IMG/VR virus record: IMGVR_UViG_2585427787_000014
Reading direction: 5' to 3' (one strand)
Length of the DNA: 40,925 nucleotides
Source: a virus
Lineage: Duplodnaviria; Heunggongvirae; Uroviricota; Caudoviricetes
Below, one piece after another: positions 5,892-35,093 of this stretch (position 1 is the first letter of the stretch; the number at the start of each line of letters is the position of its first letter). The translations under genes were made by a program, and so were the position numbers. Under the pieces are notes generated by a model. That model searched no databases. It had not been told where the DNA came from and saw nothing but the letters and a program-made list of their open reading frames with translations.

Positions 5892-5908
5892 ATTACCTTT
5901 CGGGTAAT
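5892..5908. promoter_or_regulatory. 17-bp palindrome copy (ATTACC-TTTCG-GGTAAT)
   Basis: Perfect inverted repeat; in the divergent region between the tailspike start (5788) and gene 5985-6242. Confidence 0.55.
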
Positions 5909-5964: not shown

Positions 5965-5984
5965 ATTGCATGGAGAAGATTAAG

Positions 5985-6242
5985 ATGCAGCAGTATCACT
6001 ATCCACTGGAAGACGGATTTACCGAAAGGATTCACACGCCGGGAGGCGTCAGGTCACTGGTGGAAGGATCGCACTTGATGAAATTACTCCGGGATCTCGA
6101 TAAGGATGGATTTAATGTCGATGGCCCACTTGCCGAACTGACTGCACTGATTAACTACGTCACCAGCTCACAGATGTCTATGCGGGATCTGCAAACACAT
6201 CTCGACTATTGTGCCGAACAATTACGAAAACAAACCAGATAA
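5985..6242 (+). CDS. small antirepressor-like protein; standalone homologue of the C-terminal domain of the Bro-N protein at 6558-7268
   Basis: GGAG Shine-Dalgarno 9 nt before ATG 5985 (alternative ATG at 5970). About 45% identity by eye over ~80 aa to the C-terminus of the 6558-7268 product (LMKLLRDLDKDGFNVDGPLAELT...RDLQTHLDY vs LMNLLNQLQDDGHDVSGAAAELT...RDIQTHAEY). Confidence 0.6.
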   Translation: MQQYHYPLEDGFTERIHTPGGVRSLVEGSHLMKLLRDLDKDGFNVDGPLAELTALINYVTSSQMSMRDLQTHLDYCAEQLRKQTR

Positions 6243-6272
6243 GGTTTGCAATTACCAAGTGGAGTGCTTATA

Positions 6273-6289
6273 TTTACCTTTGCGGTAAA
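6273..6289. promoter_or_regulatory. 17-bp palindrome copy (TTTACC-TTTGC-GGTAAA)
   Basis: Embedded in a longer imperfect inverted repeat (GGAGTGCT...AGCACTCC) just downstream of gene 5985-6242. Confidence 0.5.
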
Positions 6290-6379
6290 TTTACATAGCA
6301 CTCCTCTTGTGCCATAGTAATCGGGCACTGGCAAAATCCAGTGCCGGGATTGGCGTCCCGAGTTACTAAGTGGCGCATA

Positions 6380-6401
6380 CCACGCCAGACGTGGTTTTTT
6401 T
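6380..6401 (+). terminator. rho-independent terminator
   Basis: Stem CCACG / CGTGG with loop CCAGA, followed by T7. Confidence 0.55.
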
Positions 6402-6557
6402 ATGCGTTAAGCACAGCTATATCCGAATTATGGTGGGCTGGGCAGGGGTCCGAAAGGACGCCGGTACCACTTAGGCCGGTACGCCAACCTTGTCCAGTTC
6501 ACCACCAGTAATTGGCGTTGCGGTGGTGATTAAAATCACTAAGTGGAGATAACCACC

Positions 6558-7268
6558 ATGGCTAATGCTCAAACTGCCATCTTCAAATTTGAATCTGTTA
6601 ACCCTATCCGTTCCATCATTATCGATGGCCAACCATGGTTTGTAGCCCAAGACGTTTGTAGTGCGCTGCGTATCCAAAACGTCACCCAAGCACTTGAAAA
6701 ACTGGATGATGATGAAAGGTCTATGTTCAACATAGGGCATGAACATCGTGCAATTTTTGACAGCCGAGTAAAAGAGATCAACATCATCTCCGAGTCAGGC
6801 CTCTACACACTGATCCTCCGCTGCCGCGACGCAGTGACACCAGGCACTATCCCATACCGCTTTCGTAAATGGGTTACAGGTGAGGTTCTTCCTCAGATCC
6901 GCCGCACCGGAAGTTACATTAAAAACTCGCTCCCGCAGGAAGAGCGCATAAAGATGGTTGCCGACCAGGTAGCCAACGCCACAGCATCAGCAGTGATGCA
7001 GGCGATGAAGATAGAGAACAAAACCTACAGTGCCCCACTGAAGCCCGGCTACCGCAGCCTGATTCATTCGCCGTCTGGTGTTCTCGGCCTGACGGAGAAC
7101 TCACTGCTGATGAATCTGCTGAACCAGTTACAGGACGACGGGCACGACGTATCGGGCGCGGCGGCGGAGCTGACCACCATGTTCTGCTACATCGTCGGTG
7201 TGAGCAAATGCCTGCGTGATATCCAGACGCACGCGGAGTACATCAACGACAAGGCAGGGTTCTTCTGA
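6558..7268 (+). CDS. Bro-N domain antirepressor-like protein
   Basis: GGAG 9 nt before ATG 6558 (track ORF begins at GTG 6543). N-terminus (AIFKFESVNPIRSIIIDGQPWFVAQDVCSALRI...) has Bro-N/antirepressor character; C-terminal ~80 aa paralogous to the 5985-6242 product. Confidence 0.6.
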   Translation: MANAQTAIFKFESVNPIRSIIIDGQPWFVAQDVCSALRIQNVTQALEKLDDDERSMFNIGHEHRAIFDSRVKEINIISESGLYTLILRCRDAVTPGTIPYRFRKWVTGEVLPQIRRTGSYIKNSLPQEERIKMVADQVANATASAVMQAMKIENKTYSAPLKPGYRSLIHSPSGVLGLTENSLLMNLLNQLQDDGHDVSGAAAELTTMFCYIVGVSKCLRDIQTHAEYINDKAGFF

Positions 7269-7339: not shown

Positions 7340-7356
7340 ATTACCTCAAGGGTAAA
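7340..7356. promoter_or_regulatory. 17-bp palindrome copy (ATTACC-TCAAG-GGTAAA)
   Basis: About 60 bp upstream of small ORF 7416-7595. Confidence 0.5.
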
Positions 7357-7415
7357 CGGATTGGTTTCATTTTTATTAATCCGTGTAATGAACTTATGAG
7401 ATATGAGGTAATGTC

Positions 7416-7595
7416 ATGCGAAACGAAAAATTGCAGATGCGTAGAGCGCAAGCTGCCGCAAGACGTTCTTTCAATGGAAGCGTAGAGTGCGTAAAAGTTA
7501 CTATGACAAAAGATCACGCAAGTCGCGTATCCCGCGCTTTCTTTGATTCTCGTAACAATAAGGAAAATTATGAGTTCGTCTGCGTCGCAGAATGA
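7416..7595 (+). CDS. small basic protein (59 aa) overlapping the start of the YafO-like gene; candidate antitoxin/regulator
   Basis: Not in the ORF track (<60 aa). ATG preceded by GAGGT; translation MRNEKLQMRRAQAAARRSFNGSVECVKVTMTKDHASRVSRAFFDSRNNKENYEFVCVAE; overlaps the next gene by 26 nt in another frame. Confidence 0.3.
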   Translation: MRNEKLQMRRAQAAARRSFNGSVECVKVTMTKDHASRVSRAFFDSRNNKENYEFVCVAE

Positions 7596-8115
7596 TAAAA
7601 ATCAAATTGTCAGATATAAGGGTCGAGTATTGCATACGCAAAATTTCTCGGCCCTTTGTGCATCTGATCTTGAGCTGAAGAAAGTATCTGATGCCTTTAC
7701 CCAGTATTGGAAAACGGGATACCATCCATCTCTTGGTAAAGATGCTGCATTTGCTCGTCCGACAGAAATGCTTAAACTAAATGTCAGGCATACTCATGTC
7801 GATAACCAAGACTATATTCCAGAAGATAGTGATAAAAAACACACTGGTAAAAAATCATCTTGGGATGCATGGAAAAAAATAGCGTCTGTGCAAGTAAAAT
7901 GCATACCAACAAGTAATTGCTTTTTAGTTTATTCGGTAAATCACAATCGTGATGCGCTGGTTATGTTTTTTGTTGACGCAGATGCCCACAACATAACTGA
8001 GCAAGAAGAGTTTAAAGAGGCAGCAATCACTATCAGTTATCAATTCTTTGAGAAAACAAAAACAGAACCAATGCCTTTAGAAGAAGATCTTTTTTCTGAT
8101 AAATGGAAGGAATAA
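7570..8115 (+). CDS. YafO-family toxin-like protein (type II TA-like candidate)
   Basis: AAGGA before ATG 7570 (track start 7543). Translation resembles E. coli YafO as I recall it (SLGKDAAF...NVRHTHV...CFLVYSV). AT-rich; has its own terminator. Confidence 0.45.
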   Translation: MSSSASQNDKNQIVRYKGRVLHTQNFSALCASDLELKKVSDAFTQYWKTGYHPSLGKDAAFARPTEMLKLNVRHTHVDNQDYIPEDSDKKHTGKKSSWDAWKKIASVQVKCIPTSNCFLVYSVNHNRDALVMFFVDADAHNITEQEEFKEAAITISYQFFEKTKTEPMPLEEDLFSDKWKE

Positions 8116-34123: not shown

Positions 34124-34354
34124 TCATGAGTAGAAGAAGTATGCCAGTTCTGCTTTTGAGCGCAGCCATTGTCTTGTTTTACAGGCTTTAAAAAGCCCAT
34201 TCATCAATACCTTACCTGGCATTTTGCGCTTACCTGTTAAGTGAGTCTGGATATAGTGACTCGTCGTTCCGGCTTCCTGTGCGAAGGCTTCACGCTCGTC
34301 CGGAGTAAGTGCAAGCCAGTGCTTTTTGAAATCGAAATGTCCGTTATCGCTCAT
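34124..34354 (-). CDS. Cro-like small HTH regulator (first gene of the replication-side operon)
   Basis: 76-aa ORF with HTH-like segment (REAFAQEAGTTSHYIQTHLTGKRKMP); divergent from the CI-like gene across an operator-rich region. Confidence 0.55.
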   Translation of the reverse strand: MSDNGHFDFKKHWLALTPDEREAFAQEAGTTSHYIQTHLTGKRKMPGKVLMNGLFKACKTRQWLRSKAELAYFFYS

Positions 34355-34389
34355 AGCTATTGCCTGATATTTATTTCAGATAATAAATA

Positions 34390-34406
34390 TTCACCCATAA
34401 GGTAAC
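34390..34406. promoter_or_regulatory. operator-like palindrome, imperfect (TTCACC-CATAA-GGTAAC); site 1 of 3 in the divergent switch region
   Basis: 37 bp upstream of the Cro-like start. Confidence 0.45.
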
Positions 34407-34420
34407 AAAAATCAAGGATA

Positions 34421-34437
34421 GTTACCTATGAGGTGCA
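34421..34437. promoter_or_regulatory. operator-like palindrome, imperfect (GTTACC-TATGA-GGTGCA); site 2 of 3
   Basis: Directly abuts site 3. Confidence 0.4.
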
Positions 34438-34454
34438 TTTACCTGTTGGGTAAT
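34438..34454. promoter_or_regulatory. operator-like palindrome (TTTACC-TGTTG-GGTAAT); site 3 of 3
   Basis: 55 bp upstream of the CI-like ATG (34509); same spacer TGTTG as the copy at 35150. Confidence 0.5.
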
Positions 34455-34508
34455 ATTGCTTTAAATTGAATCATCTACTGATTCATATATGAGGCGATTT
34501 TCCAGAAA

Positions 34509-35093
34509 ATGAAAAGTATCCAGGACGTCCGCAGGCAAAATCTCAACGACTTGATCGACCGTGAATTCAATGGTGTTCAGACGCGGATGGCAGAAAAACT
34601 TGGAACTCAGGCAAATCTGGTAAACCGCTGGGCTCTTGGCAAGAAGGTTATCGGCGACCAGGTTGCGCGAAAAATTGAAGCTGCCGCCAATAAACCCCGT
34701 AACTGGCTTGATATCGATCGCTCGCTTTCTCAGGAAGGTTTTCAGCCTGTCGGCCCGAGTGATATAGGTCAGCTGGCTGCTCACAACCTGGAACGCTGGA
34801 TGAGCGAAAGCCGCGACCTTTCAACGCAGGGAAAACTACACCGCGCATCCGGCGTCGCCCAGGTGACAATCAGCCGCCTGTTAAACAATGAGGTCAGCGT
34901 TTCCATTTCCACCCTGGAGAATGTTGCATCCGCATTCGGGCGTCATGGCTATGAATTACTGATTCACCCGCACGACCCTGCGACTATCAACTATGACCGC
35001 TCGCGCTACGCATTGTTACCCGAAACCGAGAAAGCAAAGATCGAAAGTTACATTGAATTTGTCATCAACCAGAACGAAAAAAACAAACAATAA
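34509..35093 (+). CDS. CI-like repressor with two HTH (XRE-type) domains and no recognisable peptidase domain
   Basis: 194-aa ORF; HTH-like segments near residues 20-60 (GVQTRMAEKLGTQANLVNRWALGKK) and 95-150 (LHRASGVAQVTISRLLNNEV); no LexA/S24-like Ser-Lys region seen; followed by a terminator. Confidence 0.55.
   Translation: MKSIQDVRRQNLNDLIDREFNGVQTRMAEKLGTQANLVNRWALGKKVIGDQVARKIEAAANKPRNWLDIDRSLSQEGFQPVGPSDIGQLAAHNLERWMSESRDLSTQGKLHRASGVAQVTISRLLNNEVSVSISTLENVASAFGRHGYELLIHPHDPATINYDRSRYALLPETEKAKIESYIEFVINQNEKNKQ

What the first reader, a model, noticed from the sequence alone, without database searches (positions are those of the whole stretch)
6243..6557. 315-bp highly structured non-coding region between the two antirepressor-like genes
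This region contains a palindrome copy nested in a longer inverted repeat (GGAGTGCT...AGCACTCC), a hairpin (CACTGG...CCAGTG), a terminator (6380-6401), and further inverted repeats (GGCCGGTAC-type and CACCAC...GGTGGTG). I see no ORF. It could be a leader, an attenuator, or a small RNA controlling the Bro-N gene.
Basis: seen in the sequence. Interest (0 to 1): 0.42.

Follow-up and report, generated by a model that had tools for sequence, protein, structure and literature searches.

The report
IsrK-C4 RNA switch controlling phage antirepressor
The 315-bp gap is not anonymous structure: it holds an operator-controlled promoter and two already catalogued phage regulatory RNAs (an IsrK-like small RNA and a C4 antisense RNA) whose loops match the ribosome-binding site of the antirepressor gene, so it is a real but ordinary, unannotated copy of the control circuit known from phage P1.

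Summary
Together they form a known module. Rfam places isrK (RF01394) at 6325-6401 and C4 antisense RNA (RF01695) at 6426-6509, both above their gathering scores. Two exposed C4 segments, b' (ACCACUUAG, 6466-6474) and a' (ACGCCAA, 6481-6487), are complementary to two site pairs. One pair, a1 (6350-6356) and b1 (6366-6373), lies inside the IsrK-like RNA. The other, a2 (6512-6518) and b2 (6539-6546), lies in the antirepressor leader, and b2 overlaps the Shine-Dalgarno GGAG of the Bro-N gene (ATG 6558). This is the order annotated in phage P1 immI: operator, promoters, a1, b1, c4, a2, b2, gene. In relatives, a'/a1/a2 and b'/b'/b2 change together. In 75 genomes chosen only by an IsrK hairpin plus a1, 73 had the predicted a' and 72 of those the predicted a2. 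The first ~80 bp is DNA-level control: a TTACC-N5-GGTAA palindrome, found 15 times in the window, abuts the likely IsrK promoter. The window differs from P1 and Gifsy-1 in having no icd/orf45 leader ORF. Verdict: a new, unannotated member of a known kind in an epsilon15/phiV10-like prophage. Interest is low to moderate.

The parts
6246..6274 (+). Candidate sigma-70 promoter TTGCAA-17-TATATT; its -10 overlaps the operator
   Evidence: Pattern scan only. The number of promoter-like sites in the region is not above chance. This upstream sequence is replaced by unrelated DNA in 35 of 81 related loci, so the module does not need it.
6256..6309 (.). Long inverted repeat (arms 6256-6268 and 6297-6309) enclosing the operator
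   Evidence: I5: 13 nt, 92%. Folds at -26.5 kcal/mol, z = -4.1, if transcribed. The upstream arm is present in only 46 of 81 relatives. Role unresolved.
6269..6293 (.). Operator-like palindrome TATATTTACC-N5-GGTAAATTTA (core TTACC-N5-GGTAA at 6274-6288)
   Evidence: I18. The core occurs 15 times in the window against 0.64 expected. It is exact in 52 of 55 distinct related promoter sequences. Binding by the phage repressor is inferred.
6290..6318 (+). Likely IsrK promoter: TTTACA-17-(TG)CATAGT, placing the start near 6325
   Evidence: Pattern scan. Nearly invariant in 81 related loci. The -10 ends 7 nt before the first position of the Rfam isrK model. The transcription start is inferred.
6325..6401 (+). 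IsrK-like small RNA: hairpin 1 (6325-6344), hairpin 2 (6345-6360), terminator (6379-6401)
   Evidence: Rfam RF01394: 67.2 bits against a gathering score of 50, full-length match. Fold -29.7 kcal/mol. Five of six pairs in hairpin 1 show compensatory changes. RF03163 c4-a1b1 also matches 6312-6364 at 44.3 bits, just under its gathering score of 46.7.
6350..6356 (+). a1 site, UUGGCGU, complementary to C4 a'
   Evidence: In the a1:a' helix, 5 of 7 pairs change on both sides and 94% of cells pair.
6366..6373 (+). b1 site, CUAAGUGG, complementary to the C4 b' loop
   Evidence: CTAAGTGG occurs only here, at b2, and as the complement inside C4 in the whole window.
6426..6509 (+). C4 antisense RNA; mature form predicted at 6432-6506 by homology with the 77-nt P1 c4
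   Evidence: Rfam RF01695: 66 bits against a gathering score of 45. Fold -43.6 kcal/mol, z = -5.0. The closing stem pairs in 100% of cells, with 7 of 17 pairs compensatory. Mature ends inferred from the P1 annotation.
6466..6474 (+). b' loop, ACCACUUAG (loop of hairpin 2)
   Evidence: Fold; complementarity table.
6481..6487 (+). a' single-stranded segment, ACGCCAA
   Evidence: Fold.
6512..6518 (+). a2 site, UUGGCGU, in the ant leader
   Evidence: In the a':a2 helix, 5 of 7 pairs change on both sides and 96% of cells pair.
6539..6546 (+). b2 site, CUAAGUGG, overlapping the Shine-Dalgarno GGAG (6545-6548)
   Evidence: plus direct reading of the sequence.
6523..6559 (+). Leader hairpin (GUGGUG with CACCAU) enclosing b2 and the Shine-Dalgarno and reaching into the AUG
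   Evidence: Fold of 6510-6575: -22.1 kcal/mol, z = -4.0. RNAalifold keeps the helix, but with one-sided changes only.
6558..7268 (+). Regulated gene: Bro-N antirepressor (236 aa)
   Evidence: Pfam Bro-N, 9.5e-20. PHROG 130 'anti-repressor Ant', 4.8e-56. In the close relative vB_EcoP_ZX5 the record's 'anti-repressor' lies under the DNA match, and overexpressing it lowered lysogeny (PMC9782041).

Best explanation
The region is the control region of an immI-type antirepressor operon in an epsilon15/phiV10-like (Uetakevirus) prophage.

1. A promoter (about 6290-6318) abuts an operator palindrome (6269-6293). The same palindrome recurs at many intergenic sites in the phage, so it is most likely bound by the phage's main HTH repressor (inferred).
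2. Transcription starts near 6325. Most transcripts stop at the terminator (6379-6401) and give a ~77-nt IsrK-like small RNA that carries sites a1 and b1 (inferred).
3. Read-through transcripts carry C4 and the ant leader. By analogy with P1, C4 is cut out by RNase P as a ~75-nt RNA (6432-6506) (inferred).
4. C4 exposes b' in a hairpin loop and a' in a single-stranded stretch. These pair with a2 and b2 in the leader. Because b2 overlaps the Shine-Dalgarno GGAG, ribosomes are shut out and the antirepressor is not made, which protects lysogeny. The complementarity and its covariation are shown here. The block to translation is inferred from P1.
5. The same C4 segments also pair with a1/b1. The IsrK-like RNA can therefore compete with the leader for C4 and release ant translation. 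IsrK supplied in trans did this in Gifsy-1. The balance between termination and read-through would then set the switch (inferred).

The short a and b segments act as specificity labels. They differ between otherwise near-identical phages.
For: Family membership:
- Both RNAs score above the Rfam gathering thresholds.
- The same isrK-C4 pair sits upstream of antirepressor genes in phiV10, Tyrion, VT2-Sakai, CP-1639, APSE-2, 2H10 and Stx phages. P1 has c4-a1b1 plus C4.

Anatomy matches P1:
- The order and spacing reproduce the annotated P1 immI region: Oc4 operator, P2c4/P1c4, a1, b1, c4, a2, b2, icd.
- a1 to b1 is 16 nt here and 14 in P1. a2 to b2 is 27 against 29. b2 end to start codon is 12 against 11.
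- My automatic site search recovers P1's annotated sites.

Sites in the window:
- The composite motif TTGGCGT-N(5-35)-CTAAGTGG occurs only at a1b1, at a2b2, and as the complement in C4. Zero are expected by chance.
- None of 20,000 shuffles gives all four sites.

Covariation:
- Sixteen distinct a/b combinations each have matching sites at conserved offsets.
- Own-locus complementarity averages 6.9 to 8.5 nt, against about 4 nt across types.
- The a1:a' and a':a2 helices each have 5 of 7 pairs changed on both sides and none changed on one side only.
- Of 47 consensus pairs, 22 are compensatory.

Prediction test: of 75 genomes picked only by IsrK hairpin 1 plus a1, 73 carry a' and 72 of those carry a2. 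More than 35 different b' loops are seen, most with matching b1 and b2.

Experiments in relatives:
- P1 c4 is processed by RNase P, and its b' loop occludes the ribosome-binding site (summarised in PMC5320573; PMC8546580).
- In Gifsy-1, IsrK in trans raised anrP translation more than 100-fold. The compensatory pairs G28A/C162U and G31A/C159U restored the single wild-type RNA conformation (PMC4825925). By my numbering these fall in a1:a'.
Against: - No transcript data exist for this phage. The start site, terminator read-through, C4 processing and the mature ends are all inferred.
- The promoter calls are pattern matches, and the count of such matches in this region is not above chance.
- The operator-binding protein is inferred only from the palindrome's distribution and a nearby HTH gene.
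- If the operator shuts this promoter in lysogens, C4 would be scarce there. Its main role may then be during infection or induction rather than maintenance. This differs from P1, whose operon also has a second promoter (P1c4/P51b) that the record does not place under the operator and that I recall being constitutive.
- Whether the IsrK-like RNA antagonises C4, or helps it as seqA does in P4, cannot be decided by sequence.
- The Gifsy-1 sequence could not be retrieved, so mapping its mutants onto a1:a' rests on numbering and on the Rfam consensus.
- c4-a1b1 scores just below its gathering threshold.
Confidence: 0.85

Rival explanations
1. C4 acts mainly by ending transcription rather than by blocking translation. 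The model would be P4, where the CI RNA pairs with sites upstream and downstream (seqA, seqC). Here a1/b1 would be a co-target that strengthens termination at the IsrK terminator, or Rho would terminate within ant.
For: b1 ends 5 nt before the terminator stem. The Gifsy-1 authors raise this possibility and call IsrK a structural homologue of P4 seqA (PMC4825925). From my own knowledge, P1 translational repression of icd causes Rho-dependent polarity on ant (Biere et al. 1992, not checked here).
Against: b2 overlaps the Shine-Dalgarno sequence in every type examined, which points first to translational occlusion. In Gifsy-1, IsrK in trans raised translation 139-fold but transcription only 8-fold. 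The two modes are not mutually exclusive.
Confidence: 0.25
2. The IsrK-like RNA is chiefly an Hfq-dependent trans-acting small RNA aimed at host mRNAs, and its complementarity to C4 is incidental.
For: The Rfam family is named 'Hfq binding RNA'. The RNA has a terminator with a U-tail and an invariant A-rich loop.
Against: a1 and b1 change together with a' and b' across dozens of loci. That is not expected if host targets constrained them. No second a/b target exists elsewhere in the phage window. Host targets were not searched.
Confidence: 0.1
3. The region is only a cis-acting leader or attenuator of the ant mRNA. Alternative hairpins decide read-through and ribosome access, and no stable trans-acting RNA is made.
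For: A terminator precedes the gene. Chains of alternative pairings exist, for example GGUGGG / CACCACC / GGUGGUG / ACCACC-AUG. In Gifsy-1, alternative cis structures A and B were demonstrated.
Against: Homologous RNAs accumulate as discrete species in P1 (77-nt c4) and Gifsy-1 (IsrK, and the ~80-nt STnc1160) and act in trans. A cis-only model does not require the duplicated target sets.
Confidence: 0.07
4. The region encodes a small leader peptide, like icd in P1 or orf45 in Gifsy-1, whose translation is coupled to ant.
For: An ATG at 6430 lies at the position of the orf45 start in Gifsy-1.
Against: That frame stops after 14 codons, at the TAG inside the b' loop. It has no Shine-Dalgarno. No frame ends at the ant start.
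Confidence: 0.02

Closest known systems
Phage P1/P7 immI operon (Oc4 operator, c4 antisense RNA, icd, ant1/ant2)
   Same: - Same RNA family: P1 c4 scores 68.8 bits and the window 66 bits on RF01695.
- Same order, with near-identical spacing: operator, promoters, a1, b1, C4, a2, b2, gene.
- b2 overlaps the Shine-Dalgarno sequence in both.
- The regulated product is an antirepressor in both.
- In both phages the operator belongs to a set scattered over the genome: 22 C1 operators in P1 (PMC8546580) and 15 palindromes here.
   Different: - The host virus is a ~40-kb integrating podovirus, not a plasmid-prophage myovirus.
- There is no icd leader gene. C4 targets the ant ribosome-binding site directly.
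- A strong terminator between b1 and C4 makes the a1b1 segment a separate IsrK-type RNA (isrK model 67 bits here). P1 matches only c4-a1b1.
- The operator is a 15-bp palindrome. From my memory, the P1 C1 site is asymmetric and 17 bp long.
- The antirepressor is a Bro-N protein.
Salmonella Gifsy-1 isrK-orf45(STnc1160)-anrP locus
   Same: - The IsrK family match is full length.
- The layout is the same: a small RNA ending at a terminator, then a read-through transcript carrying a processed ~80-nt RNA, then an antirepressor gene (PMC4825925).
- The experimentally supported helix (G28/C162 and G31/C159) corresponds to a1:a' in my numbering.
   Different: - Gifsy-1 has orf45, which is translationally coupled to anrP. 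The window has no such ORF.
- The Gifsy-1 authors compare their system with P4 CI/seqA and do not mention P1 c4 ('phage P1' occurs 0 times in the text).
- The Gifsy-1 sequence itself could not be examined here.
Satellite phage P4 CI RNA with seqA/seqB/seqC
   Same: A processed small RNA is cut from the leader of the operon it controls. It pairs with sites both upstream and downstream of itself (as described in PMC4825925).
   Different: P4 acts by premature transcription termination and controls replication genes, not an antirepressor. Membership was not tested here.
Phage P22 immI (mnt, arc, ant, sar RNA)
   Same: Functional analogue. An antirepressor gene next to the tailspike/tail-fibre gene of a podovirus is held down by both an operator-binding protein and a small antisense RNA (PMC12197685).
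   Different: sar is a true cis-antisense transcript from the opposite strand. C4 is made from the same strand and acts through two short loop contacts. The two are not homologous.
APSE phages of Hamiltonella (c4 + isrK next to a BRO-N gene)
   Same: The same two Rfam families lie upstream of a Bro-N antirepressor (10.1101/2020.03.17.996009; APSE-2 locus L083).
   Different: The a and b specificities differ: a' is AGGTCAA and b' is ATCCTTGTTAG. The phage lineage is also different.

Membership tests
C4 antisense RNA (Rfam RF01695) | Covariance-model score at or above the gathering threshold over the full model | tested here: met
   66.0 bits against a gathering score of 45, model positions 1-87 of 87, at 6426-6509.
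C4 antisense RNA (Rfam RF01695) | Long closing stem enclosing two hairpins, with an exposed loop (b') and a single-stranded 3' segment (a') | tested here: met
   The minimum-free-energy fold equals the model structure at -43.6 kcal/mol, z = -5.0. The stems covary.
C4 antisense RNA (Rfam RF01695) | a' and b' are complementary to a2/b2 just downstream, with b2 over the ribosome-binding site of the next gene | tested here: met
   a2 at 6512-6518; b2 at 6539-6546, overlapping GGAG 6545-6548; ATG at 6558. Covariation.
C4 antisense RNA (Rfam RF01695) | A second target pair, a1/b1, upstream on the same transcript | tested here: met
   a1 at 6350-6356 and b1 at 6366-6373. Covariation.
C4 antisense RNA (Rfam RF01695) | Regulated gene is an antirepressor | tested here: met
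   Pfam Bro-N and PHROG 'anti-repressor Ant'. A relative's 'anti-repressor' was tested by overexpression. Function in this phage is inferred.
C4 antisense RNA (Rfam RF01695) | Processed from a longer transcript by RNase P to ~77 nt, starting at GGU | not testable with these tools
   The sequence has AU|GGUGGG at 6430-6437 and a CACCACC 3' end, as in P1. Processing itself needs experiments.
isrK Hfq-binding RNA (Rfam RF01394) | Covariance-model score at or above the gathering threshold over the full model | tested here: met
   67.2 bits against a gathering score of 50, model positions 1-77 of 77, at 6325-6401.
isrK Hfq-binding RNA (Rfam RF01394) | Two 5' hairpins followed by an intrinsic terminator | tested here: met
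   Fold. Terminator scan. Hairpin 1 has 5 of 6 pairs compensatory.
isrK Hfq-binding RNA (Rfam RF01394) | Own promoter, with a transcription start at model position 1 | tested here: inconclusive
   TTTACA-17-(TG)CATAGT ends 7 nt before 6325 and is conserved in 81 loci. There are no transcript data.
isrK Hfq-binding RNA (Rfam RF01394) | Binds Hfq; the short form activates the read-through mRNA in trans | not testable with these tools
   Known only for Gifsy-1 (PMC4825925).
c4-a1b1 motif (Rfam RF03163) | Covariance-model score at or above the gathering threshold | tested here: not met
   44.3 bits against a gathering score of 46.7 (E = 4.9e-10) at 6312-6364. This is a near miss that overlaps the isrK match. 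P1 and VT2-Sakai pass.
P1-type immI operon | A leader gene (icd) whose translation is the direct target and is coupled to ant | tested here: not met
   No ORF ends at the ant start. The ATG at 6430 gives 14 codons.
P1-type immI operon | Operon promoter overlapped by an operator of the main phage repressor, one of many dispersed operators | tested here: inconclusive
   The palindrome at 6269-6293 abuts the -35 hexamer. There are 15 copies in the window against 0.64 expected, and they cluster between a divergent HTH repressor gene and a Cro-like gene. Binding was not tested.

The most novel reading that the evidence does not exclude
One ~235-nt transcription unit encodes both a repressor RNA (C4) and its own antagonist (the IsrK-like RNA, acting as a decoy for the C4 a'/b' segments). 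Terminator read-through would then set the ratio of the two RNAs and with it antirepressor synthesis.

The three co-evolving copies of two 7-9-nt labels (a1/a'/a2 and b1/b'/b2) would define dozens of mutually orthogonal 'RNA immunity types' among prophages of Proteobacteria. Some genomes stack two cassettes of different type.

This reading would also unify P1 a1/b1, Rfam c4-a1b1, Salmonella IsrK and STnc1160 as one system. The papers I read treat them separately.
Probability: 0.45. Interest if true: 0.5.

Novelty: new member of a known kind. Interest (0 to 1): 0.27.

Why it matters
- **Annotation gap.** The module gates the antirepressor, and so probably prophage induction, in a phage group present in about 8% of complete E. 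coli genomes (440 of 5,426). Yet no GenBank or RefSeq record I examined annotates either RNA. Several records instead draw spurious protein-coding features across them.
- **Immunity typing.** The a/b labels probably predict which co-resident or incoming phages can cross-silence each other's antirepressors, as in P1/P7 heteroimmunity. They could be read directly from sequence.
- **Linking the literature.** The analysis ties the Gifsy-1 IsrK work to the P1 c4 work. That suggests a simpler reading of the published IsrK mutants, as changes in the a1:a' contact.
- **Limit.** None of this changes the known principle.

Tried and rejected
- **tRNA or tmRNA.** ARAGORN finds only tRNA-Arg at 25285.
- **Leader peptide like icd or orf45.** Rejected.
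- **Extra C4 targets elsewhere in the phage.** None found.
- **The long inverted repeat as an essential RNA element.** Its upstream arm is missing in 35 of 81 relatives, so I treat it as optional or unexplained.
- **Duplex-energy comparison.** Own C4-target pairs against cross pairs gave the expected direction: -29.9 against -24.0 kcal/mol for the IsrK region, and -28.2 against -20.6 for the leader. It is noisy, because many loci share a' or b'.
- **Checking the Gifsy-1 sequence directly.** This failed. Gifsy-1 is not in the phage collection. The paper's text holds no sequence. My one genome scan did not return Salmonella enterica.
- **Papers not held.** The epsilon15 genome paper and the P1 genome paper are not in the library. 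My recollection that epsilon15's authors already noted the ATTACC...GGTAAT operator consensus is therefore unverified.
- **b sites in the MAFFT alignment.** They are out of register there, so I assessed b covariation by the own-versus-cross search rather than with the count of structure pairs.
Full report
**Context.** The window is an epsilon15/phiV10-like temperate podovirus (genus Uetakevirus).
- The segment 5800-7400 is 98% identical to Escherichia phage HEMP4 and 92-95% identical to phiV10, TL-2011b, vB_EcoP_ZX5 and others.
- The finding lies between two genes. Upstream is a 90-aa ORF (5970-6242). It is 44% identical to the C-terminal third of the downstream protein and falls in phrog_450.
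- Downstream is a 236-aa Bro-N protein (ATG 6558, stop 7268). It matches Pfam Bro-N at 9.5e-20 and PHROG 'anti-repressor Ant' at 4.8e-56.
- The tail-fibre gene is divergently transcribed just upstream. This is the same neighbourhood as in phiV10.

- The pieces fold better than dinucleotide shuffles, with z from -2.9 to -5.0.
- There is no credible ORF. The only ATG-started frame (6430) is 14 codons long and has no Shine-Dalgarno. Nothing stops at the ant start.

**What the region is.**
- A scan of the whole window against Rfam gives three hits above gathering. One is a tRNA-Arg elsewhere. The other two lie inside the finding: isrK (RF01394) at 6325-6401 with 67.2 bits, and C4 antisense RNA (RF01695) at 6426-6509 with 66 bits. 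Both are full-length matches.
- A permissive scan adds RF03163, 'a1, b1 targets of C4 antisense RNA', at 6312-6364. It scores 44.3 bits, just under its gathering score of 46.7.
- The predicted fold of C4 is the family structure: a 17-bp closing stem, a GAAA hairpin, a second hairpin with the loop ACCACUUAG (b'), and the unpaired ACGCCAA (a').

**The pairing logic.**
- a' is complementary to UUGGCGU at 6350-6356 (a1, in hairpin 2 of the IsrK-like RNA) and at 6512-6518 (a2).
- b' is complementary to CUAAGUGG at 6366-6373 (b1) and at 6539-6546 (b2).
- b2 overlaps the Shine-Dalgarno GGAG (6545-6548), which lies 9 nt before the ATG.
- The composite motif TTGGCGT-N(5-35)-CTAAGTGG occurs in the 40.9-kb window only at these two places and, as its complement, inside C4. 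None is expected by chance.
- CTAAGTGG occurs nowhere else in the window.
- None of 20,000 shuffles of the flanks gives all four sites.

**Comparison with P1.** The annotated P1 immI region reads Oc4 operator, P2c4/P1c4 promoters, a1, b1, c4 (77 nt), a2, b2, icd, ant.
- The window has the same order and almost the same spacing. a1 to b1 is 16 nt against 14. a2 to b2 is 27 against 29. b2 end to start codon is 12 against 11.
- My automatic procedure folds C4, takes the loop of hairpin 2 and the 3' unpaired stretch, and searches the flanks. It recovers exactly the sites annotated in P1.
- By homology with the P1 c4 ends, the mature C4 here would be 6432-6506.

**Covariation.** I collected 79 loci that encode relatives of the Bro-N protein and a set of more distant phages. 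All those scanned carry isrK followed by C4.
- In the closest relatives the non-coding region is only about 80% identical while its flanks are 92-94% identical. The differences concentrate in the a and b segments, which change in concert.
- Examples: a' ACGCCAA, GUGCAAA or AGACCAA is matched by a1 = a2 = UUGGCGU, UUUGCAC or UUGGUCU. b' CCACUUAG, CCUUUUAG or CCUUUGUAG is matched by the corresponding b1 and b2.
- Sixteen distinct combinations were seen, P1 included.
- The longest own-locus complement averages 6.9 nt for a' and 7.1-8.5 nt for b'. Across different types it averages about 4 nt.
- On a 15-sequence alignment, the a1:a' and a':a2 helices each have 5 of 7 pairs changed on both sides and none changed on one side only. 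They pair in 94-96% of cells.
- The whole structure pairs in 97% of cells, against 85% in shuffles (0 of 500 reach it) and 35-45% when the partners are slid.
- RNAalifold finds 22 of 47 pairs compensatory.

**A prediction test.** I scanned one genome per species for GCAAAATC-N5-CCGGGATTGGCGTCC. This pattern specifies only the loop of IsrK hairpin 1 and a1.
- It returned 75 loci, from Enterobacterales, Xanthomonas, Aeromonas, Thalassospira and others.
- 73 have ACGCCAA 90-190 nt downstream. 72 of those have UUGGCGU a further 22-28 nt on.
- The intervening hairpin loops are of more than 35 kinds. Most have matching b1 and b2 at fixed offsets.
- The three-way complementarity is therefore a general rule of this module, and b is the more variable label.

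**The 5' third (6243-6324).** This part is best read as DNA-level control.
- The palindrome core TTACC-N5-GGTAA (6274-6288) occurs 15 times in the window against 0.64 expected. Most copies lie in intergenic regions.
- Two copies lie between a divergent pair of genes: a 194-aa HTH_3 protein (34509-35093) and a Cro-like gene. I infer that the HTH protein is the main repressor and that the palindromes are its operators. This recalls the dispersed C1 operators of P1 (PMC8546580).
- At the finding, the palindrome abuts and partly overlaps the -35 of TTTACA-17-(TG)CATAGT (6290-6318). That -10 ends 7 nt before position 1 of the isrK model.
- The palindrome, both hexamers and the spacer are nearly invariant in 81 related loci. 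The sequence further upstream comes in two unrelated versions.
Their role remains unexplained.

**Mechanism.**
- Shown here: family membership, structure, the two target sets, the overlap of b2 with the Shine-Dalgarno, and three-way covariation.
- Taken from experiments on relatives:
  - P1 c4 is cut from the operon transcript by RNase P, and its b' loop occludes the ribosome-binding site (PMC5320573; PMC12197685).
  - In Gifsy-1, a fraction of isrK transcripts reads through the terminator. An ~80-nt RNA (STnc1160) is processed from the read-through transcript.
  - Short IsrK in trans raises anrP translation more than 100-fold.
  - The pairs G28A/C162U and G31A/C159U restore the single wild-type RNA conformation (PMC4825925).
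- With 6325 as +1, a1 is nt 26-32 (UUG28G29C30G31U). If a' in Gifsy-1 is ACGCCAA at 158-164, then G31 pairs with C159 and G28 with C162. This fits the published numbering exactly, so those mutants probed a1:a'. This is an inference from numbering, because I could not retrieve the Gifsy-1 sequence.
- Inferred for this phage: the IsrK-like RNA and the ant leader compete for the same two C4 segments. C4 bound to a2/b2 blocks ant translation. Excess IsrK-like RNA relieves the block. The operator ties the whole unit to the repressor.
- A leader hairpin (6523-6559) that buries b2, the Shine-Dalgarno and part of the AUG may add a further layer. So may the alternative pairings of CACCACC with either GGUGGG or GGUGGUG. 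These have no compensatory support.

**Differences from the known systems.**
- There is no icd or orf45 leader gene, so C4 acts directly on the ant ribosome-binding site.
- The a1b1 segment is a terminator-ended RNA of the IsrK type, as in Gifsy-1, Stx phages and APSE. It is not simply part of the leader, as P1 is annotated.
- The operator is a palindrome, and the virus is an integrating podovirus.
- These are variations within a known kind.

**Novelty.**
- The co-occurrence of c4 and isrK next to a BRO-N gene has been noted for APSE phages (10.1101/2020.03.17.996009). The c4-a1b1 motif was catalogued in 2010 (PMC2864571).
- The study of the close relative vB_EcoP_ZX5 shows that its antirepressor promotes the lytic route but does not mention the RNAs (PMC9782041).
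- No record I looked at annotates the RNAs.
- Neither the Gifsy-1 paper nor the 2025 review I read connects IsrK with P1 c4.

**Verdict.** The feature is real and functionally coherent, and it is explained by known families. It is a new, unannotated member rather than a new kind.

Noticed in passing
window 3189, 5893, 6274, 7341, 24948, 25563, 28586, 28604, 32046, 32108, 34054, 34391, 34439, 35151, 35213: The palindrome TTACC-N5-GGTAA occurs 15 times (12 exact) against 0.64 expected, mostly in intergenic or promoter positions. It looks like a genome-wide operator set for one repressor, as with the C1 operators of P1.
   Followed up: partly
window 34124-35093: A divergent gene pair: a Cro-like 76-aa gene (34124-34354, minus strand, phrog_35) and a 194-aa HTH_3 protein (34509-35093, phrog_8). 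Palindromes lie between them and after them. This is probably the immunity region, with the HTH protein as the repressor that binds the palindromes.
   Followed up: partly
window 5970-6242: A stand-alone 90-aa ORF that is 44% identical to the C-terminal domain of the Bro-N antirepressor. It has its own palindrome just upstream (5893-5907). It could modulate or mimic the antirepressor's C-terminal domain.
   Followed up: partly
window 7341-8115: A palindrome at 7341 is followed by a 59-aa ORF (7416-7595) that overlaps a 190-aa ORF (7543-8115). The larger ORF has a weak YafO-toxin match (23.2 bits, cut-off 25). This may be a toxin-antitoxin pair under the same operator.
   Followed up: no
L054 and L075 (both from IMGVR_UViG_3300045988_096329): One viral contig carries two consecutive isrK-C4-ant cassettes. 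They share the a label but differ in the b label (CCUUUGUAG against CCUUUUAG).
   Followed up: no
L088 573-1595 (Stx1_499), L084 734-1279 (2H10), L001 3082-3149 (phiV10): Database annotations run protein features straight across the isrK and C4 RNAs. In Stx1_499 the first ~170 residues of the annotated 'Ant' look like translated RNA genes, and the real start follows b2. These appear to be annotation artefacts.
   Followed up: partly
window 6243-6560 versus relatives: In phiV10-type relatives the non-coding control region is only about 80% identical while the flanking genes are 92-94% identical. The divergence is concentrated in the a/b labels and the stems, consistent with diversifying 'immunity type' exchange.
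   Followed up: partly
window 25285-25361: A phage-borne tRNA-Arg (anticodon TCT), flanked by two of the palindromes (24948 and 25563).
   Followed up: no
L104 (Vagococcus sp. WN89Y contig): An exact isrK/a1 pattern, with matching C4, a2, b1 and b2, sits in an assembly labelled as a Firmicute. This is probably contamination, or a proteobacterial prophage contig in that assembly.
   Followed up: no
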